In this document: one piece after another, positions 4,620-48,550 of the stretch
Position numbering within the stretch: position 1 is the first letter of the stretch
Layout of the letters: each line of letters opens with the position of its first letter
Assembly (NCBI GenBank): GCA_964016885.1
Contig: OZ024742.1
Coordinates: 351,106,001-351,170,000, forward strand
Direction: 5' to 3'
DNA: 64,000 nt
Source of the DNA: Eledone cirrhosa
Lineage: Eukaryota
Position numbers and translations under genes: made by a program
The notes under the pieces: model-generated
What the model saw: only the letters and a program-made list of their open reading frames with translations
Database searches by the model: none
Told to the model about the DNA's origin: nothing

Positions 4620-4975
4620 TTATGTCAAATACGAGGTCGATAAAAAAGTACCAGTAATGTACAGAGTAATTGCTGGCCTTGTGCCAACATTAGAAACAAT
4701 TATTACTAATATTCTTAATACACTGGGTAATTGCTAGCCTTGTGCCAACAGTAGAAACAATTATGTCAAATACGAGGGCGGTGGATTGCCAGTATCGGTA
4801 GAGGGTTTGACGCCATGCTTTCCAGCATAGTTACGTCCCTTTATGATCTGAGTTCAAATCCCGCCGAGGTTGACATTGCCTTTCATCCTTACGGGGTCGA
4901 TAAAATAAAGTACCAGTAATGCACTGGGTAATTGTTGGCCTTGTGCCTAAAGTAGAAACAATTATGTCAAATACG
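4620..4975 (+). mobile_element. tRNA-derived SINE cluster: full copy at 4775-4961 plus truncated 3' pieces
   Basis: A-box-like TTGCCAGTATCGG and B-box GAGTTCAAATCC. TTATGTCAAATACG occurs at 4620, 4761 and 4962 and looks like a target-site duplication. Confidence 0.8.
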
Positions 4976-5003
4976 TCATAACACGTAAATTTAATGTTGG
5001 TTT

Positions 5004-8000
5004 ATGCAGGGAGTAACGTTGACCCATGCAGGGAGTAACGTTGACCCATGCAGGGAGTAACGTTGACCAATGCAGGGAGTAATGTTGACCCATGCAGGGA
5101 GTAACGGTGACGTATGCAGGGAGTAAGGTTGACCTATGCAGGGAGTAACGTTGACTTATGCTGGGAGTAACGTTGACATATGCAGGGAGTAACGTTGATC
5201 TATGCGGGGAGTAACGTTGAACCATGAAGGGAGTAACGTTGACCATGGAGAGAGTAACGTTGAACCATGCAGGGAGTAATGTTGCCATAAGCAGGGAGTA
5301 ACGTTGACCCATGCAGGGAGTAATGTTGCCATAAGCAGGGAGTAACGTTGACCCATGCAGGGAGTAACGGTGACTTATGCACGGAGTAACGTTGACCTAT
5401 GTAGGGAGTAACGTTGACTTATGCAGGGAGTAACGTTGACCTATGCAGTGAGTAACGTTGACCCATGCAGGGAATAACGTTGATCCATGCAGGGAGTAAC
5501 GTTGACCCATGCAGGTAGTACCATCTACCTATGCATGGAGTAACGTTGACCTATGCAGGGAGTAACGTTGACCTATGCAGGGAGTAACGTTGATCTATGC
5601 GGAGAGTAACGCCGATCCATGATGGGAGTAATGTTGATCTATGCAGGGAGTAACGTTGATCTATGCAGGGAGTAACGTTGACCCATGCAGGGAGTAACGT
5701 TGACTTATGCAGGGAGTAACGTTGACCCAAGCAGGTAGTAACCTCTACCTATTCAGGGATTAACATTGACCCATGCAGGGTGCAATGCTGACTTATGCAG
5801 GGAGTAACGTTGACCTATGCAGGGAGTAACGTTGACCTATGCAGGGAGTAACGTTAATCTATGCAGGGAGTAACGTTGATCTATGCAGGGAGTAACGTTG
5901 ACCCATGCAGGGTGCAATGCTAACTTATGCAGGGAGTAACGTTGACCTATGCAGGGAGTAACGTTGACCTATGCAGGGTGCAATGCTAACTTATGCAGGG
6001 AGTAACGTTGATCTATGCAGGGAGTAACGTTAATCTATGCAGGGAGTAACGTTGATCTATGCAGGGAGTAACGTTGACCTATGCAGGGAGTAACGTTGAA
6101 CCATCCATGGAGTAACGTTGACCTATGCATGGAATAACGATGCCCATGCAGGGAGTAACGTTGACCTATGCACGGAGTAACGTTGACCTATGCAGGGAGT
6201 AACGTTGATCTATGCAGGGAGTAACGTTGATCTATGCAGGGAGTAACGTTGATCTATGCAGGGAGTAACGTTGATCTATGCAGGGAGTAACGTTGACCCA
6301 TGCAGGGAGTAACGTTGACTTATGCAGGGAGTAACGTTGACCCAAGCAGGTAGTAACCTCTACCTATTCAGGGATTAACATTGACCCATGCAGGGTGCAA
6401 TGCTGACTTATGCAGGGAGTAACGTTGACCTATGCAGGGAGTAACGTTGACCTATGCAGGGAGTAACGTTAATCTATGCAGGGAGTAACGTTGATCTATG
6501 CAGGGAGTAACGTTGACCCATGCAGTGTGCAATGCTAACTTATGCAGGGAGTAACGTTGACCTATGCAGGGAGTAACGTTGACCTATGCAGGGTGCACTG
6601 CTAACTTATGCAGGGAGTAACGTTGATCTATGCAGGGAGTAACGTTAATCTATGCAGGGAGTAACGTTGATCTATGCAGGGAGTAACGTTGACCTATGTA
6701 GGGAGTAACGTTGACCCATGCAGGGAGTAACGTTGACCTATGCAGGGAGTAACGTTGATCTATGCAGGGAGTAACGTTGATCTATGCAGGGAGTAACGTT
6801 AATCTATGCAGGGAGTAACGTTGATCTATGCAGGGAGTAACGTTGACCTATGTAGGGAGTAACGTTGACCCATGCAGGGAGTAACGTTGACCTATGCAGG
6901 GAGTAACGTTGATCTATGCAGGGAGTAACGTTGATCTATGCAGGGAGTAACGTTGACCTATGCAGTGAGTAACGTTGATCTATGCAGGGAGTAACGTTGA
7001 CCTATGCAGGGAGTAACGTTGATCTATGCAGGGAGTAACGTTGACCTATGCAGGGAGTAACGTTGACATATGCAGGGAGTAACGTTGACCCATGCAGGGA
7101 GTAACGTTGACCTATGCAGGGAGCAATGTTGATCCATTCAGGGAGTAACGTTGACCTATGCAGGGAGTAACGTTGACCTATGCAGGGAGTAACGTTAATC
7201 TATGCAGGGAGTAACGTTGATCTATGCAGGGAGTAACGTTGACCCATGCAGTGTGCAATGCTAACTTATGCAGGGAGTAACGTTGACCTATGCAGGGAGT
7301 AACGTTGACCTATGCAGGGTGCAATGCTAACTTATGCAGGGAGTAACGTTGATCTATGCAGGGAGTAACGTTAATCTATGCAGGGAGTAACGTTGATCTA
7401 TGCAGGGAGTAACGTTGACCTATGTAGGGAGTAACGTTGACCCATGCAGGGAGTAACGTTGACCTATGCAGGGAGTAACGTTGATCTATGCAGGGAGTAA
7501 CGTTGATCTATGCAGGGAGTAACGTTAATCTATGCAGGGAGTAACGTTGATCTATGCAGGGAGTAACGTTGACCTATGTAGGGAGTAACGTTGACCCATG
7601 CAGGGAGTAACGTTGACCTATGCAGGGAGTAACGTTGATCTATGCAGGGAGTAACGTTGATCAATGCAGGGAGTAACGTTGACCTATGCAGTGAGTAACG
7701 TTGATCTATGCAGGGAGTAACGTTGACCTATGCAGGGAGTAACGTTGATCTATGCAGGGAGTAACGTTGACCTATGCAGGGAGTAACGTTGACATATGCA
7801 GGGAGTAACGTTGACCCATGCAGGGAGTAACGTTGACCTATGCAGGGAGCAATGTTGATCCATTCAGGGAGTAACGTTGACCTATGCAGGGAGCAACGTT
7901 GATCTATCCAGGGAGTAACGTTGACCCATGCAGGGAGTAACGTTGACCTATGCAGGGAGTAACGTTGATCTATGCAGGGAGTAACGTTGACCTATGCAGG

Positions 8001-10455
8001 GAGTAACGTTGATCTATGCAGGGAGTAACGTTGATCTATGCAGGGAGTAACGTTGACTTATGCAGGGAGTAACGTTGATCTATGCAGGGAGTAACGTTGA
8101 CCCATGCAGGGAGTAACGTTGATCTATGCAGGGAGTAACGTTGACCCATGCAGGGAGTAACGTTGACCCATGCAGGGAGTAACGTTGACCCATGCAGGGA
8201 GTAACGTTGATCTATGCAGGGAGTAACGTTGACCCATGCAGGGAGTAACGTTGACCTATGCAGGGAGTAACGTTGATCTATGCAGGGAGTAACGTTGATC
8301 TATGAGGGAGTAACGTTGATCTATGCAGGAAGTAACGTTGATCTATGCAGGGAGTAACGTTGACCTATGCAGGGAGTAACGTTGATCTATGCAGGGAGTA
8401 ACGTTGACCCATGCAGGGAGTAATGTTGATCTATGCAGGAAGTAACGTTGATCTATGCAGGGAGTAACGTTGATCTATGCAGGGAGTAACGTTGACCTAT
8501 GCAGGGAGTAACGTTGATCTATGCAGGGCGTAACGTTGATCTATGCAGGGAGTAACGTTGACCCATGCAGGGAGTAACGTTGATCTATGCAGGGAGTAAC
8601 GTTGACCCATGCAGGGAGTAACGTTGACCTATGCAGGGAGTAACGTTGATCTATGCAGGGAGTAACGTTGATCTATGCAGGGAGTAACGTTGATCTATGC
8701 AGGAAGTAACGTTGATCTATGCAGGGAGTAACGGTGACCTATGCAGGGAGTAACGTTGATCTATGCAGGGAGTAACGTTGATCTATGCAGGGAGTAACGT
8801 TGACCGATGCAGGGAGTAACGTTGATCTATGCAGGGAGTAACGTTGACCCATGCAGGGAGTAACGTTGACCTATGCAGGGAGTAACGTTGATCTATGCAG
8901 GGAGTAACGTTGACCTATGCAGGGAGTAACGTTGATCTATGCAGGGCGTAACGATGACTTATGCAGGGAGTAACGTTGACCCATGCAGGGAGTAACGTTG
9001 ACCTATGCAGGGAGCAATGTTGATCCATTCAGGGAGTAACGTTGACCTATGCAGGGAGCAACGTTGATCTATGCAGGGAGTAACGTTGACCCATGCAGGG
9101 AGCAACGTTGATCTATGCAGGGAGCAATGTTGATCCATTCAGGGAGTAACGTTGATCTATGCAGGGAGCAACGTTGACCTATGCAGGGAGTAACGTTGAC
9201 CTATGCAGGGAGTAACGTTGACCTATGCAGGGAGCTAATGTTGTCCCATGTAGGGAGCAACGTTGACCTATGCAGGGATACATGTTAACATATGCAGGGA
9301 GTAACGTTGAACCAAGCAGCGAGTAACGTTGACCTATGCAGGGTGTAATGTTGACAAGTGCAGGGAGTAACGTTGACCTATGCAGGGAGTAACTTGACCT
9401 ATGCAGGGAGTAATGTTGACCCATGCAGCGAGTAAGGTTGACCTATGCAGGGAGTAACGTTGACGTATGTTGGGAGTAATGTTGCCCTATGCAGGGAGTA
9501 ACGTTGACCTATGCAGGGAGTAACGTTGACGTATGTTGGGAGTAATGTTCACCTATGTAGGGAGTAACGTTGACCTATGCAGGGAGTAGCGTTGACCTCT
9601 GCAGGGAGTAATGTTGACCTATGCAGGGAGTAACGTTGACCCATGCAAGGAGTAACGTTGAGCTATGCAGGGAGTAATGTAGACCCATGCAGGGAGCAAC
9701 GTTAACCTATCCAGGGAGTAATGTTGACCTATGCAGGGAGTAATGTTGACCCATGCTGGGAGTAATGTTCACCTGTGCTTGTAGTAATGTTGACCCATGC
9801 TGGGAGTAATGTTGACCTATGTTTGTAGTAATGTTGACCCATGCTGGGAGTAATGTTGACTTGTGCTTGTAGTAATGTTGTACCATGCAGGGAGTAATTT
9901 TGACCTGTGCTTGTAGTAATGTTGACCCATGCTGGGAGTAATGTTTACCTGTGCTTGTAGTAGCAGGTAGTAATGTTGACATGTGCTTGTAGTAATGTTG
10001 ACCCATGCTGGGAGTAATGTTGACCTGTGCTTGTAGTAATGTTGACCCATGCTGGGAGTAATGTTGACCTGTGCTTGTAGTAATGTTGACCCATGCTGGG
10101 AGTAATGTTGACCTGTGCTTGTAGTAATGTTGACCCATGCTGGTAGTAATGTTGACTTGTGCTTGTAGTAATGTTGTACCATGCAGGGAGTAATGTTGAC
10201 CTGTGCTTGTAGTAATGTTGACCCATGCTGGTAGTAATGTTTACCTGTGCTTGTAGTAATGTTGACCCATGCTGGGAGTAATGTTGACCTGTGCTTGTAG
10301 TAATGATGACCCATGCATGGAGTAATGTTGACTCCTGCAGTGAGTAGTGTTGACACATGCAGGAAATAGTGTTGACCTATTCAGGGAGTAATGTTGACCC
10401 ATGCAAGGAGTAATGTTGACCCATACAGGGGTAATGTTGACCCATGCAGCGAGTA
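5004..10455. repeat. 22-bp minisatellite of about 250 units, ending in a 43-bp dimeric variant
   Basis: Unit ATGCAGGGAGTAACGTTGACC(T/C). From about 9750 to 10320 a 22-mer alternates with the 21-mer TGTGCTTGTAGTAATGTTGAC. Confidence 0.97.
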
Positions 10456-11401: not shown

Positions 11402-13140
11402 GGGAGGTCTTTGAAAAGGGTATGTCTTTCTAATAAGTGTTTTTTATGGAGGTACCTGGTCTTGTTACTATCTTAATATTAAGTTTATGTTTATCTAGGG
11501 CCCTTCTAAATTTGTAAGCTAATTCACCTCTCGGAGTTGTATCGATGAACATTACACTCTGGTATTTATTGCTATCATACCATGAGTTTATTCTATTAGC
11601 CTTATTCATTGTTCTTTCTATTCTATTCCAAAACTTGCTCCTATACAAGGGGCAGGTCCCATTTGTGTCATTATTTACCATTTTTTCCCATTTGGTTCTG
11701 GCTCCTCTATACACTCTGATTTTATCTCTCTGATTGTAACCAGAGAACTGCATACGGTGGATGAAGTGTTGTATGTGTCGCTCTAGTTCTTCGGGGTGGC
11801 ACATGCGGAACACGTTTCTCATCACCCATACCAAATCCGCAATCAGTATGTTGATTTTGGTATGGTCCGAAACAGCTGAGTTTCGGTGGATCAGATATTT
11901 GGAAGTCATGGGTTTGGCATAATGGGAATGGAGGATTTGTTTTTTGTTATTAATGGTATCTAACCAGAGCTCTGTGTCAAGTACAGGTAATCGATGGTTG
12001 GGGTGTTTTCTTGGGTATTCTATAGTAACTCTAATACTCTGGTGGATGGAGTTAGCTATTTGCTGGATGCTTTTCATTGTGTTTTACTCTAATTCCTGAC
12101 TGTTCTCTAGTGGGGCTATTTTAACTACGATATTTATATCATCAACGTAGCGGGAGTACATTAGCAGGGTAAGGGGTCTTCTAATTGTTCTTTAAGTTTA
12201 AGTTTAAGTCTACTGTCCCACCATGCCATGAATAAGTTAGCTATGTCGCCTTCAATGCTAACACCAGTGGCTGCTCTCTCCTCTTGGGCATATGTTTTTC
12301 CATTAAATTTGAACATATGTTCCTTAAGGGTTAATATTATGCTGTCCCCCACCGCATGTGCAATCATTTTCTTTAGTTCATCGTGGTTTTCGGGGGTCCA
12401 TATGGCTCTGGTCCATCCGTTCCATCTATCTGTGTGGGTTTTCTTGGCCAGTGAGGTAATGGTAGGTGGTCTGCCTCTTGCTGGTCTTGTATGGCAAGGT
12501 TGCTAAGGCATATGTGTCTAGATAATTATTAATATAGGTAAGTTTAAGTAGGAGTCCCAGCTCACTGGTATCAATCCAACGGAATTCAACATTGCTCTCA
12601 CTGATCATTTCTACGCATTTCTCCACAGCAAAATCCACGTCAATAGATGGATACAGGAACACAACTTCCATACTACCTATTATGCAGTTTGTTAGGTCCC
12701 TAGATCGGTTACTCTCGCCGATTCTGCTGAGGAGGTCCTCCGTGCTGTCACATACATCTGGGGACATTTCAACGATGGGGCGTATGATCAGTGAGAGGAA
12801 GTAGGACAGTCTGTATTTACTAGCAATGTTAGCTCCACAGACTGGCCGTGTTGGTGGTCCCGTGACAGGGTCACTGCTCTTTTTATGGTCTTTTCGAAGC
12901 CCATTCAACGCTGGCACGTCATTGTTCCAGGCCTGGAAGTTGTTGGCAGTCCTTTTGTTGGGCTGCATTATATTTGTCGACATCACCATATGGCCATTGA
13001 GGGCTTTTTCTCTATACTCATGCTCTTGTGGTGTTACTTCTCTTGTGATAGTGATGTGGGGTTGGATTGCCTGGATGTAGTTTGGCAGACTCTCAACCGA
13101 CATTCTGCCAGACTTGTCTGTTGGAAAGCATGCTATCTCT
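11402..13140 (-). pseudogene. Penelope-like RT, inverted partial copy with frameshifts
   Basis: ORF pieces contain NGLRKDHK, PTRPVCGAN, IGSMEVVFLYPSI, HMFKFNGKTYAQ, ANLFMAWWD, SRYVDD, LPVLD and HYAKPMTS. 11402-12400 is the reverse complement of the forward copies. Confidence 0.92.
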
Positions 13141-13156
13141 CCATTACGCGAGCGCT

Positions 13157-14367
13157 GGATGAACTAAAGAAAATGATTGCACATGCGGTGGGGGCCAGCA
13201 TAACATTAACCCTTAAGGAACATATGTTCAAATTTAATGGAAAAACATAGGCCCAAGAGGAGGGAGCAGCCTTTGGTGTTAGCATTGCAGGCGAGATAGC
13301 TAACTTATTCATGGTATGGTGGGACGGTAGACTTAAACTGAAACTTAAAGAACAATTAGGAGACGCCGTAACCCTGATAATGTACTCCCGCTACGTTGAT
13401 GATATAAACATCGTAGTTAAAACACCCCCACTAGAGAACAGTCAGGAATTAGTAAATAGCTAACTCCATCCACCAGAGTATTAGAGTTACTATAGACTAC
13501 CCAAGCAAACACCCCGACCATCGATTACCTGTACTAGACACAGATCTCTGGTTAGATACCATTAATAACAAAAAACAAATCCTCCATTCCCATTATGCCA
13601 AACCCATGACTTCCAAACATCTGATCCACCGAAACTCAGCTGTTTCGGACCATACCAAAATCAACATACTGATTGCGGATTTGGTACGGGAGATGAGAAA
13701 CGTGTCCCGCATGTGCAACTCCGAAGAACTAGAGAGACACATACAACACTTCATCCACCGTATACAGTTCTCTGGTTACAATCAGAGAGATAAAATCAGA
13801 GTGTATAGAGGAGCCAGAACAAAATGGGAAAAAATGGTAAATAATGACACAAATGGGACCTGCCCCTTGTATAGGAGCAAATTTTGGAATATAATAGAAA
13901 GAACTATGAATAAGGCTAATAGAATAAACTTATGGTATGATAGCAATAAATATCAGAGTGTAATGTTCATCGATACAACCCCTAGAGGTGAATTAGCTTA
14001 CAAATTTAAAAGGGCCCTAGATAAACATAAACTCAATATTAAGATAGTAGAAAGACCAGGTACCTCCGTAAAAACACTTATTAGCAAGACATACCCTTTT
14101 CAAAGACCCCCTGTATAGATAATAAATGTATAATCTGTAAATTAAGCCCCCATATTAACTGTAAAACTAGAAATGTAGTATATATCATAAGATGTACCGA
14201 AGGATAATGTAGAGATAAAAATATAGTGTACATAGGTGAGACAGCTAGTAGTATACGGGAACGGATAAATGAACATTGGCGAGACCTTCAAGATAGTAAA
14301 GAATCATCTGTACTCTACTAACATGCTAACATAGAACATAAGGGTAAATTAGAGAACATAGAAATAA
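13157..14367 (+). pseudogene. Penelope-like RT-GIY-YIG, first forward partial copy
   Basis: Same sequence as 14385-15627 with stops and a deletion. It breaks off inside the GIY-YIG domain. Confidence 0.92.
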
Positions 14368-17011: not shown

Positions 17012-17014
<3 letters not shown>

Positions 17015-17402
17015 CATGAAATGACAGGAGGCTGGACTTGTGTAAATCGAGGGCGACCGGCTAAGGTAGAGGGTGCAAGATGGCGGTCGCCCTCCGGTCC
17101 TCGATTTTCATCCCCATGGATTTTATCTATTACATTCACGTATTATATTTCGAATACCTGATGATATCACCGGATTCATACGGAACCCGGTCATTGAAAT
17201 GATCATAGTATAATAAACCTTTCAAGGATTTACACAAATCCAGCCTCCTGTCATTTCATTATATTTAACTCCGTAATAGCACCACCAACTAAAAAAACAA
17301 AGACGGTTGAACTGGTTTACGTTGAGTACTCTCTCTATTATTACATTACGATTGACCATAGGGAATAGACCAGCTCTATACAGTGGTGAACCTCAGACCT
17401 GA

Positions 17403-17403
<1 letters not shown>
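17012..17403 (+). mobile_element. ORF-less pseudo-LTR element with a short 5' inversion
   Basis: 17016-17048 is the reverse complement of 17227-17259. It contains an HHR and AATAAA and is flanked by (TA)n. Confidence 0.75.
17154..17211 (+). ncRNA. Type I hammerhead ribozyme
   Basis: ATAC-CTGATGA-stem II (TATCACCGGATTC/GAACCCGGTCATT)-GAAA-TGATCA-TA-GTAT, followed by AATAAA. Stem III is palindromic. Confidence 0.78.
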
Positions 17404-17457: not shown

Positions 17458-17619
17458 ATAACGAAGGACATGTGGTAAGGAACCAAGTGGACCATAACGC
17501 ACCAAAGTACTCAATACTTAGGGTAGTAGAGTGGGTAATAGGAACAAGTAAGACCCCGACGGCTGAATTAGCCGTTGAAACGGCTTGAGCTCGGCCGTCG
17601 GGGTCTTACTTGTTCCTAT
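17458..17619 (-). mobile_element. GACGGCT fold-back family, copy 1 (collapsed palindrome)
   Basis: Tail AACGAAGGA.ATGTGGTAAGGAACCA.GTGGACC… plus palindrome ATAGGAACAAGTAAGACCCC…GGGGTCTTACTTGTTCCTAT, in (TA)n. Confidence 0.9.
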
Positions 17620-18748: not shown

Positions 18749-18838
<90 letters not shown>

Positions 18839-18841
18839 GTA

Positions 18842-19401
18842 GATAAATCTACCAAGAGTTTACGGTAGTATCCAATCCGTATGAAGAACTCAATGTAATC
18901 CGGATATCATGGAAAGAAGAGATGCAATGAAAAATCACTTTCGGTGAAAGATAAACGGAATACAGAGTCAAGATAAAATATTAAAAAAATAATGAATAAA
19001 ACAATGAAACAGTTCCTTATATTAAACAAAAAAAGTTCATTATTTAACGATCGTTTCTGGGATATATATATGTTAGAATTGGCATGTATATTTAACAGAT
19101 CTATGTACAAAATTATACAAAATTATACAAACTAGCAAAATTAAATATACATACCAACTCATATATATGCCGTCTTCAGAAATAATCTGTTATTTCTGAA
19201 GACGGCATATATATGAGTTGGTATGTATATTTAATTTTGATAGTTTGTATAATTTTGTATAATTTTGTACATAGATCTGTTAAATATACATGCCAATTCT
19301 AACACATATATATCCCAGAAACGATCGTTAAATAATGAACTTTTTTTGTTTAATATAAGGAACTGTTTCATTGTTTTATTCATTATTTTTTTTATATTTT
19401 A
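18842..19401. mobile_element. Fold-back pseudo-LTR with arms of about 210 bp and an HHR on each strand
   Basis: About 18975-19185 is the reverse complement of 19190-19401, with a 4-bp spacer TCTG. One-sided tail at 18842-18975; (TA)n flanks. Confidence 0.9.
19190..19335 (+). ncRNA. Type I hammerhead with a long stem II (mirror copy at 19040-19185, minus strand)
   Basis: TTATTT-CTGAAGA-long stem II (CGGCATATATATG…CATATATATCCCA)-GAAA-CGATCG-TT-AAATAA. Confidence 0.75.
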
Positions 19402-19497: not shown

Positions 19498-19695
19498 TAT
19501 AGGAACGTGTAGGACCCCGACGGCTGAGCTCAAGCCGTTTCGACAGCTAATTCTGAGTCCAGAATTAGCCGTCGAAACGGCTTGAGCTCAGCCGTCGCGG
19601 TCCTACTCGTTCCTATTACCCTCTATACCAGCCTAAGTATTGAGTGCTTTGGTGCGTTATGGTCCACCTGGTTCCTAACCACATTTCCTTCGTTA
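19498..19695 (+). mobile_element. GACGGCT fold-back family, copy 2
   Basis: Palindrome centred at about 19556, followed by the family tail …CATTTCCTTCGTTA. Confidence 0.9.
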
Positions 19696-26809: not shown

Positions 26810-26967
26810 ATAACGAAGGAAATGTGGTAAGGAACCAGGTGGACCATAACGCACCAAAGTACTCCATACTTGAGGTAGTAGAGTGGGTAATAGGAACCAG
26901 TAAGACCCCGACAGCTGAGCTCAGCCGTCGAAACGGCTTGAGCTCAGCTGTCGGGGTCTTACTGGTT

Positions 26968-26972
<5 letters not shown>
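26810..26972 (-). mobile_element. GACGGCT fold-back family, copy 3
   Basis: Same tail and palindrome as copies 1 and 2. Copy-specific variants are mirrored in both arms. Confidence 0.9.
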
Positions 26973-28449: not shown

Positions 28450-28640
28450 TCGGTGTTCGACGGCTGAGCTCTTCACCATTCAACAACTAGTCTCAGACAC
28501 GAACTAGCTGTTGAAACGTTTAAGTTTTTACCTGCAGAGCTCAGACTCCTTATACTATATCCATACTCACTCTACTGTACCAAGTATTGATTACTCTGTT
28601 GAATAGTGATGTAACTAGTTCAAACCTGGTTCTTTCGTAA
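28450..28640 (+). mobile_element. Old, diverged relative of the GACGGCT family
   Basis: CGACGGCTGAGCTC…TTCAACAACTAG…CTAGCTGTTGAAAC…CAAGTATTGA…ACCTGGTTC. Confidence 0.55.
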
Positions 28641-29928: not shown

Positions 29929-30172
29929 AGGATTCAGGATCCCAACGGCTTAGTTGCGGCCATTTCGACAACTAGATACGGACTAAAGCGCCAGTGTACG
30001 AGCTAGATTCCCGTCGCTCGTATACTGGTGCTTTAGATCGGATCTAGATGTCGAAACAGACGGAAGTCAGCCGTCGGATTCCTGAATCTGCTCATATTAC
30101 CCACACAACCACCCCAAGTATCGAGTTCTCTGGTGGGTTATGTTCTACCTGGTTCTTACCACAGCCTATCTG
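29929..30172 (+). mobile_element. Diverged GACGGCT-type fold-back with a longer central hairpin
   Basis: GATTCAGGA…TTTCGACAACTAGAT…GTACGAGC / GCTCGTATAC…ATCTAGATGTCGAAAC…CAGCCGTC…TCCTGAATC, followed by a related tail; (TA)n flanks. Confidence 0.75.
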
Positions 30173-30417
30173 ATATATATATATATAATTATAATATTTC
30201 GGTATCGATATACGAGGTGTAGAACACCCCGTACATAAGCCGTGGTTTATATACAATTAAATTTGATGCTAAATGGAGATATGACTCGGGGGAAGGCAGC
30301 TACACGTATATCGTTCAGCTCACCTTAATTGACTGCATGCTTTGGAGTCGTCCAATGGAAGGTTCGTTCCTGTGTTTCCCCGTCGTATATCTTTATTGTA
30401 GTATACACACTTACACA

Positions 30418-31154: not shown

Positions 31155-31371
31155 GAGAGCCACGGTATCGGGGTTTGTGGCTCAAACGATTAATTTGGAG
31201 ACGGAGAACTTGTCACAGAATGTCGCGCCCAAGATGAGGGGACTTACCCAATTCGAACGGTAATTCGTCGGGGTCCTCAACATCACCACGATAGAGACAT
31301 ACTGGGTCCAGTTGTGAAGAGAAGCCTGTTGCGTTGAGGCTCATTCTCATTATGTAGTTGAGAGTGTCATG
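31155..31371 (-). mobile_element. CRE-like RLE-domain fragment
   Basis: The reverse translation HDTLNYIMRMSLNATGFSSQLDPVCLYRGD..PD..PFELGK…ATFCDKF…ATNP matches the sequence expected upstream of the 38470 fragment (ATNPGSAA). Confidence 0.65.
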
Positions 31372-31654
31372 TTCGGAGACCCCGACAGCTGAGCTCCGGC
31401 CGTTTTGACAACTAGATATATATGATTCCCAGAGACTATGAAGCGAAAATGTTTATATGAAAGATTAAATTGTAATTTAAAATACTTATTTTAAGAATTA
31501 GTGTGTACACTTGGGAAATACATTCATATATTTCATAGTTCTAAAGCACATTAAATGTAGACTTTAGCTTCAAATAAAATGAGAATTAAGAAACTATGTG
31601 ATACAAAGGCAAAAGGGTTTAAAAACCTCTGAATTGTAAAATGTTGTGTCTGTC

Positions 31655-32656: not shown

Positions 32657-32754
32657 GAAACAAACAAAAAGTCAGGCAGATATACACATACAGAGAGAGT
32701 AACAGATAGATACGTATGGACGTACACACACACACACACATTTATATATATATA

Positions 32755-32973
32755 GTAATAATAATAAATGTGAAGACTAAAATCCAAACAGGGCTCGATA
32801 AGGATAAATATATATAAAATATATACGAACCCAAGAGCAAATATTTATTAAATTAACAGATTGAAGTTTAAGCAAACAATCGCTGCTTTCCCCCTTAACG
32901 GGATCTTCTGAAAGAAGGCTTAAGGGGGAAAGCAGCGATTCTTTGCTTAAACTTTATTCTGTTATTTTTATAA

Positions 32974-32975
<2 letters not shown>
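32755..32975. mobile_element. CAGAAGA-family pseudo-LTR fold-back
   Basis: HHR-like motif on the minus strand at 32865-32913, mirrored by a partial arm at 32920-32975. Confidence 0.8.
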
Positions 32976-33033
<58 letters not shown>

Positions 33034-33074
33034 GGAAAGTTATATTTAAATTGTTGGGTTACAACGAGTAAATA

Positions 33075-33518
<444 letters not shown>

Positions 33519-39220: not shown

Positions 39221-40547
39221 ACCATTTATATATAATACAGTGGAATAATGTACAATATTTTTGCTGATATATCAAACGGCAGGTATTAGTACCTCGAAAT
39301 ATATGCTATCTAAACTATAATAAAGTAAGGAGTGCGTGAATGCTTCCAGAATATATTTTTTAATCCCGTTTGTAAAATAAGTTGGATTACTTTCAATAAA
39401 TAATGAATTAATATTACATAATATATCTACTAAATTTCGTTATATTTGATCTAATATAAATAATTTTGTTGCTTATTTTAAGATTCACTTCTTTAAAGTT
39501 TTCAAATATCCGGTTACCGATTGATTAAATGAACATTCATATATTTCCGTCACTAATTTTATCCTAATGCAGTTTATATATAGTATCACCTTTCTTAAAT
39601 GTATCATGCATTACGTTACTGATTACATAAGAGAGTGTAACGCAGTCTTTGTTCAATTTCTGGGGATATTGTCAATCACGATGTTATTTGATGTATCATA
39701 TCTACATGCATATATACTTGCGTATAATATTAATATGCACACTACATGCTAGCAGAAAACCACCCTTCGAGTGGTTTTTCTGCTAGTATAATTAATAAAT
39801 TCATATGATATACTTCAGATGCGTCAATTAATGATGACAATCTTTGTCTAGCTTTATTCCTCTAGACAGAGAATTACATATGTTGACAATTCAGACACAA
39901 GCTACAAGTAAGATCCATACAAATCCCATTTGAACTTCATCCAATGTTACACTACACTTTTAGCGGGTGTCTTTTCTGTTCATTTGTTTATAGGCATAAC
40001 ATTTTCACATATTTCTCCCTTATCGATCTCATTCATTCGTAACCTTAATGTTGGTGTGGTAACATTATTGAAAATATTATCAATTTATCTATTGTTGCAA
40101 TCGGGTGGAGTGAATTATGTCTATTTTATATGTTACGTCTTGTTATATTGTTGTTTTCGATGGAAATATTTGTTTTATTACAAAGAACAGAATTAAATAA
40201 TCTATTTCCATTTCATCATAGTGTGTCAGTTACTGGGGTCAGCAGCCAAACTATATTTCCGACAGATGAACAATAGACTGAAGTGATTTTTAATGTTAAC
40301 TATAGAAAGAAAAAATAAAATGTTTATGTCCAATGATTTTAAGTATAAAAGGTCTGGTCAACTTGCTCTAATTCCTAAATTTTCATAGTTAACATGAATT
40401 TAACAAATAAAACAAGACTTTGTAGAAAATATATAGGATTTAGTAAATCGAGTAATACTTTTAATCTATAACAGTTTTCAGTGATAAAATAGTGGACATG
40501 GTGAGAGGTTCTATGGACAGTGATCTCTCCCTACCTCTGAATATATA

Positions 40548-40634
<87 letters not shown>

Positions 40635-40654
40635 GTATATGTATATATATATAT

Positions 40655-40848
40655 ATAGGAACAAGTAAGACCCCGACGGCTGAGCTCAAGCCGTTTCGAC
40701 GGCTAATTCTGGTCCAGAATTAGCCGTCGAAACGGCTTGAGCTCAGCCGTCGGGGTCTTACTTGTTCCTATTACCCGCTCTACTACCCTAAGTATTGAGT
40801 ACCTTGGTGCGTTATGGTCCACCTGGTTCCTTACCACATTTCCTTCGT

Positions 40849-40850
<2 letters not shown>
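40655..40850 (+). mobile_element. GACGGCT fold-back family, copy 4 (perfect 58-bp arms)
   Basis: 40655-40712 and 40714-40771 form a perfect palindrome around T40713. The tail runs 40772-40850; (TA)n flanks. Confidence 0.93.
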
Positions 40851-40877
<27 letters not shown>

Positions 40878-40879
<2 letters not shown>

Positions 40880-41235
40880 GGAAGAAAATGAAACGAAATT
40901 TAATTTCTCACTCTTCGTACGGCCGTTACTTAAATATAAGTATGTATACGTACTTATATATATGTATACAGACGTACAGTAGTATGAATATATATATACA
41001 TACATGCACACATATATATGTATGTATAGATTCACCGAACATTTATTATAATGCTCGGTGTGTAAACTTTGTACGGCTTAATTCGGGATGTTTGTTTATA
41101 AACACACCTAGCATTATAATAAATGTTCGGTGAATCCATACGTACATATATATATATATGTGTGCATGTATGTATATATATATACATACTACTGTACGTC
41201 TGTATACATATATGTATGTACGTATACGTACTTAT
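40878..41235. repeat. Fold-back element with arms of about 125 bp and a one-sided tail
   Basis: About 40941-41063 is the reverse complement of about 41102-41232 (GATTCACCGAACATTTATTATAATGCT / AGCATTATAATAAATGTTCGGTGAATC). Confidence 0.85.
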
Positions 41236-41246
41236 ATATATATATA

Positions 41247-41381
<135 letters not shown>

Positions 41382-44001: not shown

Positions 44002-44095
<94 letters not shown>

Positions 44096-44254
44096 TAATA
44101 AATTTGAAGACTAAAATCCAAAGATGGCTCGATAAGGATAGATATATATCAAATATATAAGAAGCGTAGAGCAAATATTTATTAAAATAACAGATTAAAG
44201 TTTAAGCAAAAAATCGCTGCTTTCACCCTTAACGGGATCTTCTGAAACTAGGTT

Positions 44255-44305
44255 AGTTTCAGAAGATCCCGTGAAGGGTGAAAGCAGCGATTCTTTGCTT
44301 AAACT
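44255..44305 (+). ncRNA. Hammerhead-like motif with a CAGAAGA core (mirror at 44199-44249; copies at 48682-48732 and 49988-50038)
   Basis: AGTTT-CAGAAGA-TCCC-GT(G/T)AA-GGGT-GAAA-GCAG…TTGC-TT-AAACT. Confidence 0.62.
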
Positions 44306-44325
44306 TTATTCTGTTATTTTAATAA

Positions 44326-44562
<237 letters not shown>

Positions 44563-45047: not shown

Positions 45048-47790
45048 ATGGAAAAATCCAATTACTCTTCTTCCCTGAAAGACACACCGATCCCTTCTGA
45101 TAACACGTACATGAGCCTACTGATACCCCACACCACCTCTTTCGTTAGACGCATGAGATGGCGCGCATTTCACCACGACAGAAGGACACAGCAACACGCA
45201 CCCGATAATCCTCAGGACCGCCTAAAACGGATCTTTAGATAAAGACTACACCCACCACATAATGCACAGTTGGAAGAATTTGAAAACCGTACATCAACAT
45301 CGCCCGAAACATCAAATTCCGAAGGATAATACACGACATACGGATTATCTCCGGAGATTGAGCTCCACAATCAAAAGCATGGAAGAATGCCCTGATTTAC
45401 TTGTGCCCTCAGACAAAACTGCTAATGTATACATGCTTGACCGTTTTACATACAACGACTGCATCGGGAAAGAGGTTAGGAAAAATTACAGGACCACAGA
45501 ACAGGACAACTTAGATAACATTAACGCCACGACCAAAACAATAATGACTGGGCTAGAAATAGATGATAGGACAAAACAATATGTACCTAAAAAACCTCGG
45601 ATATCCATTAAGGATCATAAATTAGACTTTAGAACTAATCTACCCGTTATGCTAATAGCACCCTCCAAATCAGACATAGGTAGGACCAGCAAAAATATCA
45701 TAGACAGGATACTACCGGTACTTAGGAACAAAACTAGCCTTAGCTTATGGACCTCCACCAAGGAGGCAATTGACTGGTTCTATCTAATAGATAACAAACA
45801 GCAGGTAAATTGTATTCAATTAGACATAGCGAAGAAACATTAGTAATCGTGAACAAGGCCCTCGTGAGCGCCATGGCCAGTCCAACCTGACTAGGAAAGA
45901 GGCAAGCCTTATAATAACAGCAAGAATGACGCTAATTAGCTTCGAAGACAAATTATGGGAGAGGAGGGACAGGCCCGACAGTTTCGATATTACGATGGGG
46001 TCGAGCGACTCTGCGCAGGTGACCGACCTGGTGGGAATCTATCTCCTCCAAAGATTAGTGGGGGAGACCCCAGACATCGGCGGAGGAATATACAGAGACA
46101 ACGCACTTTTTACCTTCCGTTGCCTAAGCCCCAGTCAGCTGGAACGTATGACGAAGCGCATATCGCACTTTTTCAAGCAACACGGCTTATCCGTGATGAT
46201 AGATCCTAGCACTAAGACGGTGAATTTCCTGGACGTTACCCTGGAAATGAATAAGGGCATTCACCGACCTTATCACAAGCCCAATGAGAACCTGCAATAT
46301 GTGAACAGGCAAACGATCCAACCCAAGTCAGTCATAGAAGCAGTAGTTAAAGGGGTATCAACACGCGTATCCACCCTGTGGGCCAACGCAGACGTGTTCA
46401 ACCAGCACGCCGACTAATATAATGAGGCACTGCGCAGGGCCGGTTACACAGAAACTATAGAGTACACCACGGATAGGGAAAAGCCTACTGCCGAGGCATG
46501 CGGATACGACAATAGCAATAGCACTTCCATAGGTAGACGAAACGACTCGGAACTAGCTTCCAAGAAAACGAGTAGCAGCATAGATCAAAATAAGGACACA
46601 GGACCGACAATAGGACAGACGAAGACACACACGGGCGACAGACCACCCAGTACACGTAGACAGAAGGCCGGCACGCACACCACATGCGTCGCGGAAACTA
46701 GAACTAGGGAGAGGGTAGAGGGAACACCCGGCCCGGTAGCAATGGTATAGCCACGACAACAGCACCACATAACATTAACGAGACTAACAGCAGAGCCTAT
46801 AATACAAAACGGAATATCTTAGTAAGCGAAAGCCGTAAACCTGATGACCACAGTAGGCATATAGATAGAGACAACATAGGGGACGAAATAATGGGCGGGC
46901 AAAACCCGAGACTGACACCAGACCCAAAACAAACACATTCACGCTACTACACACACACGAAATAACAATACATGACCTAAGGCCGTCACATGGTTTAACA
47001 CGTCGTATTCTAAGCAGGTATGCAGCAATGTACCAGGCCTCTTTTTCGGAGGGTTAGACGAGTGTTTCCCGCCGTCGAACAGATACCACAAGATTTTCAT
47101 CCGCCACACGGTGAAGTTTTCCTTCTCCACAGCACCTAACATTGCAGACTACAAGGCCAAAACCAACACAGCGAAGTTGGGGACCATCGACCGTCAACCG
47201 CGGCGAACGAATGACGGCCATCGGAGTTCGGAGGGCTCCTCGCAGACCAGTCTTCCAACTACAATCCGGCCCTTGCGGCGGCCGCCACGCCTGCGGAAGA
47301 CGATATAATCCAAGGCCGGGCGGGAATGAGTGGCGGAGGAGAGACCACCTTTCGACAGAACAACACCCTGAGAATCGGGAGAGGGCCGAGGCAGATCAAG
47401 GGCTAGGCGTCCGAAATGAACAACATAACGACAGAACGGGAAACTGCAGAGCGGGCACACAGTTCCCCCTGCAGGGAAGCGGGAAGATGCCTGATGAAGG
47501 GCCTGGCATATAAATGTGTGGTTAGCACGCACAATATAAAGCGCTCCTACATCTGCGCAACTTCCACGACCTTTAAATCGCGGATGTATAACCACACGAA
47601 CTCTTTCAAGGACCGGAGCAAGAGGCACTCTACTAGGCTGGCGGACCCGGCACACGAATGCATACTCGGCTGGAAATAGGAATTGTAGTCTATGCCTATC
47701 CGAGGCCATGGAGATAGTCAGACTGAAGGATGATGCGGTCAACCTGAAACCGGAAATAATCATGACGTGCAGACTCCAGAGAAGGTGAAC
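45048..47790 (+). pseudogene. Penelope-like RT-GIY-YIG ORF, disrupted; possibly Hydra-clade type
   Basis: YSSSLKDTPIPS…RRMRWRA; PSDKTANVY; ISIKDHK..F; LIAPSKSDIG; FDITMGSSDSAQVTDLVGIY; IYRDN; VNFLDVTL; PYHKPN; WFN…HKIFIRHTVKFSFS; PC..GRCL…YICAT…FKSRMYNH. Multiple stops and frameshifts. Confidence 0.9.
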
Positions 47791-48550
47791 AATATCCGAA
47801 TGGAATTCACCGGGCAGCCCAGTCTAAAAGCATGCGGCGGAGTGCACGCCGATCAGAGCGGCGAAACGGGTTCAAGAGATCAGATACCATACCCTGATGA
47901 CTATATATGCCCCGTGGAGTAAGCCGAAATAACCCAGGATGCCTACCCGACTGTGCATGTCACTGTAGGCAAAACATTGCCAGAGCCGGGACAGGTTGAC
48001 CAGGATTCCATTGACTTTCAGTCAAATGCCTTACACCAGTAAGACAATATACCTCAACCACAGTGACATACTCCACTATGGCCGGTCCACGCACCTCCCT
48101 GCATGTATATCTTTTCAGCAGAGAGTCCATACTCTCCACGTATTCTATTTTGTAACACCTGTATTTTCCGTATACAGACCCATGTGTGTATCTCATACTT
48201 CTCTTGTGTACTATCTCATATTCATACACGTTCCTTCTTTTTTTATATATATTCTGCACGCATTTTCTATGTACGGTCTGCGCATACTATTTACTGTAAT
48301 GCCATGAACGCCCACTATGTGGCTTTGTGTGAAGATTCCATATGTGGTTTCATCCATGTTCGCAACGTAACAACATCTATGAAGACACATAACTGAACGT
48401 GCCCTTACATGTATAGCACACTGTGTATCTCTATGTGACGTTATATGTATATTTTTAATATATTTCATATTTCTTTTATATATATATGTATATATGTATG
48501 TATATATATATATACATATGTATATATGTGTATATGTATGTATATGTATG

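What the first reader, a model, noticed from the sequence alone, without database searches (positions are those of the whole stretch)
40655..40850. Palindromic family folded at hammerhead stem II that has lost CUGANGA
Seen: the right arm reads …AATTAGCCGTC-GAAA-CGGCT-TGAGCTC-AGCCG-TC-GGGGTC, which is the 3' half of a type-I HHR with a GUC site. The palindrome axis (T40713) is the loop of the would-be stem II, GACGGCTAATTCTGG/CCAGAATTAGCCGTC. No CTGANGA exists in any copy (17458, 19498, 26810, 40655, or the diverged 29929 and 28450). The inverted arm stops at the same CCTAT|(TA)n point in the four close copies. Private variants are mirrored in both arms, for example GGAACCAG/CTGGTTCC and GACAGCTG/CAGCTGTC at 26.9 kb. 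Inference: cDNA snaps back on the ribozyme stem II to prime the second strand, so one arm is re-copied from the other. This would be a ribozyme-structure-directed integration mechanism that produces MITE look-alikes. The core-less RNA might also be a trans-cleavage substrate.
Basis: partly seen in the sequence, partly recalled or inferred. Interest (0 to 1): 0.8.

Follow-up and report, generated by a model that had tools for sequence, protein, structure and literature searches.

The report
Aborted Penelope retroelement insertions mimicking MITEs
This 194-base palindrome-plus-tail is the front end of a Penelope-like retrotransposon, one of many such stubs in this genome, and it likely forms when two reverse transcriptases start from both ends of a cut in a TA repeat, run off the RNA's start inside a hammerhead-ribozyme loop, and their products are joined head to head.

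Summary
The element is positions +1 to +140 of an abundant, recently active Hydra-clade Penelope-like element (PLE), plus an inverted copy of +61 to +4. The parent has a 717-aa RT/GIY-YIG ORF and units of 3.1-3.5 kb. It carries a whole type-I hammerhead fold, but with a U3-A8 core (UUGANAA) rather than CUGANGA. Short copies lack the 5' half because their arms stop at a fixed point (+1) inside loop II: 26 of 60 randomly sampled arms end at -2..+3. The arms behave as two independent cDNAs. In long insertions the tail-less arm is the longer in 11 of 15 pairs, and one arm of three or more units faces a 129-nt tailed arm; a fold-back copy cannot do that. One arm is tailed and one tail-less in 66 of 71 pairs, and arms share source variants. 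This matches the two RT start sites shown in vitro for a PLE. The mirrored variants are subfamily markers, not private. About 10^5 insertions are extrapolated. That +1 is a capped start, and that tandem arrays come from circular RNA, are inferred.

The parts
40655..40712 (-). Tail-less inverted arm = parent positions +61 to +4; inferred cDNA primed at the upstream RT start (+61)
   Evidence: the same end in long and tandem copies
40712..40714 (.). Head-to-head junction (axis T40713), at parent +2..+4, inside hammerhead loop II; the junction differs from copy to copy
   Evidence: 34 distinct junctions among 37
40712..40771 (+). Sense arm = parent +2 to +61: 3' half of type-I hammerhead (stem II 3' strand 40718-40726, GAAA box 40729-40732, stem III, GUC site ending 40751, stem I 3' strand 40752-40755)
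40772..40850 (+). 79-nt PLE tail = parent +62 to +140, the start of the 5' UTR; in full-length copies it runs on to the ATG at +232; its end is the inferred second RT start
40543..40656 (.). Left (TA)n-rich target repeat
40849..40876 (.). Right (TA)n target repeat
17459..17619 (-). Close copy; tail-less arm (17563-17619) longer than the tailed arm's share of the palindrome
19499..19695 (+). Close copy of another subfamily; tailed arm reaches +1
26811..26972 (-).
29929..30175 (+). Old-subfamily copy whose arms both pass +1 into loop II and stem II
28458..28621 (+). Highly diverged copy
   Evidence: profile E = 1.5e-6
31351..31417 (-).

Best explanation
The palindrome is the first 140 bases of a Hydra-clade Penelope-like retrotransposon joined head to head with an inverted copy of its first 61 bases, and it is likely an aborted insertion made by twin target-primed reverse transcription. 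Shown: the parent, the two fixed outer ends (+61 and +140), the pile-up of inner ends at +1, independent arm lengths, one tailed plus one tail-less arm per insertion, and arms sharing source variants. Inferred: the GIY-YIG/RT protein cuts (TA)n, and each target end primes a cDNA on RNA from one source, one at +61 and one at +140. Both copy towards the 5' end. On a linear RNA starting at +1 (likely a capped transcription start in loop II of the hammerhead) they run off after 61 and 140 nt. The two cDNA ends are trimmed and end-joined, giving a variable loop. On a template with no end at +1 (circular or multimeric RNA) the same two cDNAs run on for kilobases, giving the long inverted and tandem insertions. 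The short form lacks the ribozyme's 5' half only because that half lies upstream of +1.
For: Parent: RT + C-terminal GIY-YIG ORF of 717 aa; arm and tail lie at both ends of the unit, and the tail continues into the 5' UTR. 60 of 65 scored ORF copies have no stop, at 99-100% identity. Inner ends in 1.2 Mb of evenly spaced genome samples: 26 of 60 arms at -2..+3, 21 at +4..+45, 9 beyond -40, 3 at -12..-3, 1 alignment artefact; 23 of 83 profile hits were left out as old, tail-only, at an edge or unaligned. 66 of 71 short pairs have one tailed and one tail-less arm. The tail-less arm is longer in 11 of 15 one-tailed long pairs (read; 10 tandem, both-tail-less or complex loci left out). Among 20 unselected short pairs it is longer in 7, shorter in 6 and equal in 7 (hand count; 34 of 71 pairs dropped for lack of an exact anchor). 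Tailed arms that never reach the palindrome face complete tail-less arms (L320, L323; L267, L268, L296). A tail-less arm of three or more units faces a 129-nt tailed arm (only its two ends were fetched). A four-unit array has units differing at 0-1 of about 3,000 sites versus 10-31 to the two closest other copies compared (116 to a third), and it ends tail-less. Arms within long insertions differ by 1.1% versus 4.3% between insertions, with 31 private mirrored variants in 4,917 sites. 13 of 14 full-length arms pass the upstream +1 (read; p = 1.3e-4 against first-pass arms). In vitro precedent: two RT starts flanking the tail, both target strands cut and extended (PMC11167929).
Against: No RNA evidence was obtained for a start at +1. 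The extra-G (cap) signal is only suggestive: 35 G, 47 T, 13 C, 5 A in the first 100 of 7,066 rows (hand count), and G was 6 of 30 in the selected loci and 5 of 15 non-parental random arms, some explained by the partner arm. No match to the Penelope downstream promoter element of PMC2377424 was seen by eye. Deletion in palindrome centres after insertion could also make arms unequal. Some insertions join arms of different subfamilies or families (L016, L301, L304, L307, L308, L031, L047), so a single source RNA is not universal. The ratio of short to long copies varies among subfamilies (20 exact long-type matches for the finding's subfamily, 8 with the 5' ribozyme half), so some short copies may come from short or defective source RNAs. 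The second-pass sample is from one subfamily and chosen by ORF similarity.
Confidence: 0.7

Rival explanations
1. Same twin priming, but +1 is not a capped transcription start. It is an RT stall at the small hairpin inside loop II, a splice acceptor, or another RNA processing site.
For: +1 lies in the 3' strand of a small predicted inner hairpin in some subfamilies. The extra-G signal is weak.
Against: Arms pass +1 freely in tandem and full-length copies (13 of 14; arrays), which a structural stall would not allow. A pentamer spanning +1 is invariant in all 13 aligned rows of an otherwise variable loop and resembles an initiator (initiator consensus recalled). No pile-up at the GUC site (+41/42).
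Confidence: 0.12
2. Snap-back (first reader; self-priming was also proposed in PMC3846280): the cDNA folds back at stem II or at its own end, copies itself, and the hairpin is resolved at +61.
For: Arms are closer within than between copies. One tailed plus one tail-less arm in 66 of 71 pairs. Some junctions are near-perfect hairpins (L102, L073).
Against: The tail-less arm is longer in 11 of 15 long pairs and up to three or more units long against 129 nt. There are non-overlapping arms, single tail-less arms longer than a unit (L241, L242), and both-tail-less (L247) and both-tailed (L016, L187) insertions. The axis is not at the parent's stem II. Other families keep whole hammerheads in both arms.
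Confidence: 0.07
3. Short copies are collapsed long palindromic insertions whose centres were deleted after integration.
For: Long palindromes are unstable (own knowledge). Junctions carry microhomology and short inserts.
Against: Deletion would scatter the ends. Instead 26 of 60 arms stop in a 5-nt window and no real arm ends between -13 and -39; the longer arm ends at +1..+3 in 18 of 20 unselected pairs.
Confidence: 0.06
4. A self-propagating non-autonomous element (MITE or other DNA transposon) in which the whole palindrome is the copied unit.
For: About 10^5 copies, and many share the same 194-nt form at 96-100%.
Against: The sequence is the 5' end of a PLE. The ends are asymmetric. Junctions are nearly all different (34 of 37). 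Each subfamily marker occurs in both long and short forms.
Confidence: 0.03

Closest known systems
Hydra clade of C-terminal EN+ Penelope-like elements (Craig et al. 2021, PMC8557442; section 11 read whole, plus passages)
   Same: Single ORF, DKT, CxCX5C linker, CxxC and CxH motifs, C-terminal GIY-YIG, (TA)n target, pLTR tandems, inverted 5'-truncated copy, tail on one end.
   Different: Unit of 3.1-3.5 kb (described as generally under 3 kb), RWR instead of RWK, tail of 79 nt instead of 30-40, hammerhead with a U3-A8 core and a long loop II instead of canonical, and most insertions reduced to about 200-nt palindromes.
Poseidon PAc of Anolis, in vitro mechanism (Frangieh et al. 2024, PMC11167929; parts 1-3 of 4 read)
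   Same: Two RT start sites flanking the tail, both target strands cut and extended, AT-rich target, product length set by the template's 5' end.
   Different: Different clade. The parts read report no population of run-off palindromes, no pairing rule of one start per target end, and no fixed stop inside the hammerhead.
PLE hammerheads including the U3-A8 variant of Schistosoma Cercyon elements (Cervera and de la Pena 2014, PMC4209133; passages)
   Same: U3-A8 core. Pairs of hammerheads 100-700 bp apart on opposite strands were noted. Circular RNA was proposed as template for more-than-unit cDNA.
   Different: Here stem III is a full 5-6 bp helix rather than minimal, and the short copies carry only the 3' half.
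Adineta vaga Penelope elements (Arkhipova et al. 2013, PMC3846280; passages)
   Same: Inverted pLTR, optional tail, palindromes at inverted junctions, initiator-like motif in the pLTR.
   Different: There explained by self-priming; the arm-length data here argue against that for this family.
MITEs and non-LTR retrozymes (retrozyme preprint 10.64898/2026.07.22.740005, part 1 of 5 read; MITEs from own knowledge)
   Same: Short, non-coding, very high copy; inverted repeats (MITE) or PLE-pLTR origin (retrozyme).
   Different: No symmetric terminal repeats, no constant internal sequence, no tandem monomers with a whole ribozyme.

Membership tests
Hydra-clade PLE (parent) | Single ORF with RT and C-terminal GIY-YIG endonuclease | tested here: met
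   717-aa ORF with YRDD and YIGLT; weak Pfam GIY-YIG hit E = 0.069, below cut-off; 767 homologues at E <= 1e-20, unnamed
Hydra-clade PLE (parent) | DKT motif, CxCX5C linker, CxxC and CxH motifs | tested here: met
   DKT at 117, CxCX5C at 572, CxxC at 670, CxH at 698
Hydra-clade PLE (parent) | RWK motif | tested here: inconclusive
   RWR at 37, a conservative change
Hydra-clade PLE (parent) | Insertion into (TA)n | tested here: met
Hydra-clade PLE (parent) | Canonical hammerhead in the pLTR | tested here: not met
   A variant instead: U3-A8 in 74 of 80 long arms counted and C3-A8 in 6 (overlapping loci not de-duplicated). The fold is otherwise whole.
Hydra-clade PLE (parent) | Placement in the Hydra clade on an RT tree | not tested
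   No named reference proteins were in hand; the assignment rests on motifs.
PLE insertion architecture | pLTR tandems, inverted 5'-truncated copy, tail at one end | tested here: met
Type-I hammerhead ribozyme (parent) | Three helices round a conserved core with a 3-8 pair, GAAA box and NUH site | tested here: met
   86.7% of cells paired; three stem II pairs with changes on both sides (two clean, one noisy); covariation score 0.150 versus at most 0.076 for slid controls; 3-8 is UA in 9, UG in 3, unpaired in 1 of 13 rows. Rows are related, so this is not a probability. N7 is seen as A, C, G and U. A 2x1 internal loop follows G10.1-C11.1.
Type-I hammerhead ribozyme (parent) | Self-cleavage at the GUC site | not testable with these tools
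   Needs an in vitro assay.
Type-I hammerhead ribozyme (short element) | 5' half of the core | tested here: not met
   Absent in all window copies; no Rfam hit at gathering score in the window.
MITE / DNA transposon | Symmetric terminal inverted repeats and a constant internal sequence | tested here: not met
   79-nt one-sided tail; 34 distinct junctions among 37
MITE / DNA transposon | Target-site duplication | tested here: inconclusive
   Cannot be read inside (TA)n.
Non-LTR retrozyme | Head-to-tail monomers each with a whole hammerhead | tested here: not met
   Short copies are head-to-head half-ribozymes.

The most novel reading that the evidence does not exclude
The transcription start bisects the ribozyme. 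The linear RNA begins with the substrate half of the hammerhead, which only the enzyme half at the far 3' end can complete. End-to-end cleavage and ligation then makes a unit-length circle. Circles yield the long and tandem insertions by rolling reverse transcription, while uncut capped RNA yields about 10^5 dead-end palindromes. The hammerhead would thus be the switch between productive and abortive PLE transposition, and the dozens of other palindrome-plus-tail families in this genome would each mark their own element's transcription start and two RT starts.
Probability: 0.28. Interest if true: 0.75.

Novelty: new variant of a known kind. Interest (0 to 1): 0.47.

Why it matters
How PLEs make their inverted, tandem and tailed insertions, and what their hammerheads do, are stated open questions (PMC8557442). 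This family gives genome-scale support for twin priming from two fixed RT starts over self-priming. It also points to two template classes: one with an end at +1 and one without. Intact, near-identical ORFs make it directly testable. In practice, about 10^5 MITE look-alikes here, and probably the other palindrome-plus-tail families, should be annotated as PLE stubs.

Tried and rejected
Rfam scan of the window: 0 hits at gathering score. Genome search for CTGANGA within 30 nt before the arm: 37 matches; the 30 examined are junction inserts in short palindromes or pieces of other elements, and none is the predicted parent. A first pattern for long arms used too long a spacer and gave only 5 matches; corrected, it gave 4,148. 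The cap signature stays inconclusive; a genome-wide count of the -1 base at TA-joined ends was not run. Pfam does not recognise the RT. Minimum-energy folding gave the hammerhead junction for only some of the six variants folded. Earlier findings of the scan: three look-ups, nothing. Literature: five completed searches on PLEs and one on hammerhead core variants found no paper describing run-off palindromes or a start inside the hammerhead, but the library lacks most subscription papers and Repbase, and no supplements were read (those of PMC8557442 list Hydra families and their hammerheads and may bear on novelty). The host was not identified; an octopus repeat paper (PMC13282606, part 1 of 3) was read on a guess from memory and added nothing specific.

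Full report
Observation. The element at 40655-40850 is a 117-nt palindrome (one mismatch, axis T40713) followed by a 79-nt tail, set in (TA)n. No CTGANGA lies in any of them. The genome is 3.0 Gb. In 120 evenly spaced 10-kb samples, mostly from the largest contigs, 83 profile hits fell into 51 insertions, which extrapolates to roughly 127,000 genome-wide.

Parent. Two loci carried unique sequence upstream of the arm. Searching with it gave a long family with variable 5' truncation and inversion and an RT plus C-terminal GIY-YIG ORF. The intact ORF is 717 aa with DKT, CxCX5C, CxxC and CxH motifs, the marks of the Hydra clade as described in PMC8557442; no tree was built. Units are 3,126 and 3,523 nt. 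Sixty of 65 scored ORF copies have no stop and are 99-100% identical, so the family was recently active. I number from +1, the base equivalent to window 40711. The arm is +1..+61, the tail is +62..+140, and in full-length copies the tail runs on into the 5' UTR to an ATG at +232. The short element is therefore the front of the PLE unit. The finding's own subfamily also has long forms: 8 of 20 exact long-type matches carry the upstream ribozyme half.

Ribozyme. About 45 nt upstream of +1 the parent has the stem I strand, the core UUGANAA-G and the 5' strand of stem II. This is the U3-A8 variant known from Schistosoma PLEs (PMC4209133). It was seen in 74 of 80 long arms counted, with C3-A8 in 6. 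An older subfamily keeps the core and has compensatory changes in stem II. So the family never had CUGANGA; short copies lack the core because it lies upstream of +1. The 37 genome matches of CTGANGA just before the arm are, in the 30 examined, junction inserts or pieces of other elements. Activity is untested, and a 2x1 loop next to the core may weaken it.

Inner ends. Of 60 young arms in the random sample, 26 end at -2..+3, 21 at +4..+45, 9 run beyond -40, 3 end at -12..-3 and one is an artefact; 23 of the 83 hits were left out. The stop is in loop II, not at stem II and not at the GUC site (+41). A pentamer spanning +1 is invariant in all 13 aligned rows of an otherwise variable loop and resembles an initiator (consensus recalled). 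Penelope itself has an internal promoter (PMC2377424, passages). An extra G before +1 would signal a cap. It is the commonest non-T base (35 G, 13 C, 5 A, 47 T in the first 100 of 7,066 rows, hand count) but weaker, so this is suggestive only. No RNA holder was listed.

Two cDNAs, not a fold-back. A fold-back copy cannot be longer than the strand it copies. In long insertions the tail-less arm is the longer in 11 of 15 one-tailed pairs, by hundreds to thousands of bases. In 20 unselected short pairs it is longer in 7, shorter in 6 and equal in 7, and the longer arm ends at +1..+3 in 18 (34 of 71 pairs had no exact anchor and were dropped). Some tailed arms never reach the palindrome. One insertion has a tail-less arm of three or more units opposite a 129-nt tailed arm. 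Hence +61 is a start, not a stopping point. This agrees with the in vitro result for PAc: two RT starts flanking the tail, and both target strands extended (PMC11167929). The two events are coordinated. One arm is tailed and one is not in 66 of 71 short pairs, subfamily markers nearly always agree, and arms differ by 6.8% within versus 13.9% between copies. In 13 long pairs the figures are 1.1% versus 4.3%, with 31 private mirrored variants and 54 arm differences in 4,917 sites. Against a strict single-RNA rule, some insertions join different subfamilies or families. Junctions are nearly all different (34 of 37) and often carry short inserts, as expected from end-joining (interpretation from own knowledge).

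Two template classes. Arms that have copied a whole unit mostly pass the upstream +1 (13 of 14, read), whereas first-pass arms mostly stop there (p = 1.3e-4; the samples differ in subfamily make-up). Head-to-tail arrays of 3-4 units exist with array-specific spacing. In one, units differ at 0-1 sites in about 3 kb against 10-31 for the two closest other copies compared. This fits a circular template, as proposed in PMC4209133, but a multimeric transcript or later duplication is not excluded.

Context. Of 574 segments of 70-700 nt between TA runs in 1.26 Mb, 98 have an inverted arm starting at a TA boundary, in 37 clusters; this family is the largest with 25. Several others keep a whole canonical hammerhead in both arms, with the axis well upstream of the core. 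The palindrome-plus-tail form is thus likely the general PLE footprint here and is not tied to stem II; parents of those families were not traced.

Verdict. A real and very abundant feature, explained as aborted twin-primed insertions of a Hydra-like PLE (0.70). Inverted copies, tails, U3-A8 cores, two RT starts and circular templates are each in print. What my six completed searches did not find is the fixed run-off point inside the ribozyme loop, the one-start-per-end rule shown on genomic copies, and the scale. Interest 0.47; novel case 0.28 probability, 0.75 if true.

Noticed in passing
window 45048-47815, hammerhead-like motif near 47894: Broken ORF of a different Hydra-like PLE (32-41% identity to the parent protein) followed by a canonical CUGAUGA...GAAA motif.
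   Followed up: partly
window 17012-17403, 18837-19399, 32754-32976, 33030-33415, 40877-41250, 44090-44328: Other palindrome-plus-tail elements in (TA)n from unrelated families; those at 17012, 18837 and 33030 contain CTGANGA.
   Followed up: partly
window about 4850-10000: Large 22-nt minisatellite array, over 200 units.
   Followed up: no
window 11441-12064 and 13451-14074: 624-nt inverted repeats, 96% complementary, 1,386 nt apart; possibly another inverted PLE insertion.
   Followed up: no
L350-L351 (G000:C1:437199400-437214900): Four-unit tandem array in which the single variant site alternates (units 1 and 3 alike, 2 and 4 alike), hinting at a dimeric template or a two-unit duplication.
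   Followed up: partly
L031, L047, L053, L046 around 1300-1650: Chimeras in which an arm of another hammerhead-bearing family is joined head to head to this family's arm near +1; three independent cases share the same partner family and breakpoint.
   Followed up: partly
L217, L136, L248, L291: A subfamily with a mismatched C3-A8 core spread to many copies, and old copies show U3-G8, suggesting that ribozyme activity may not be required for spread.
   Followed up: partly
L052 1480-1510; L129 7184-7307: Unrelated sequence captured between the two arms at the junction.
   Followed up: no
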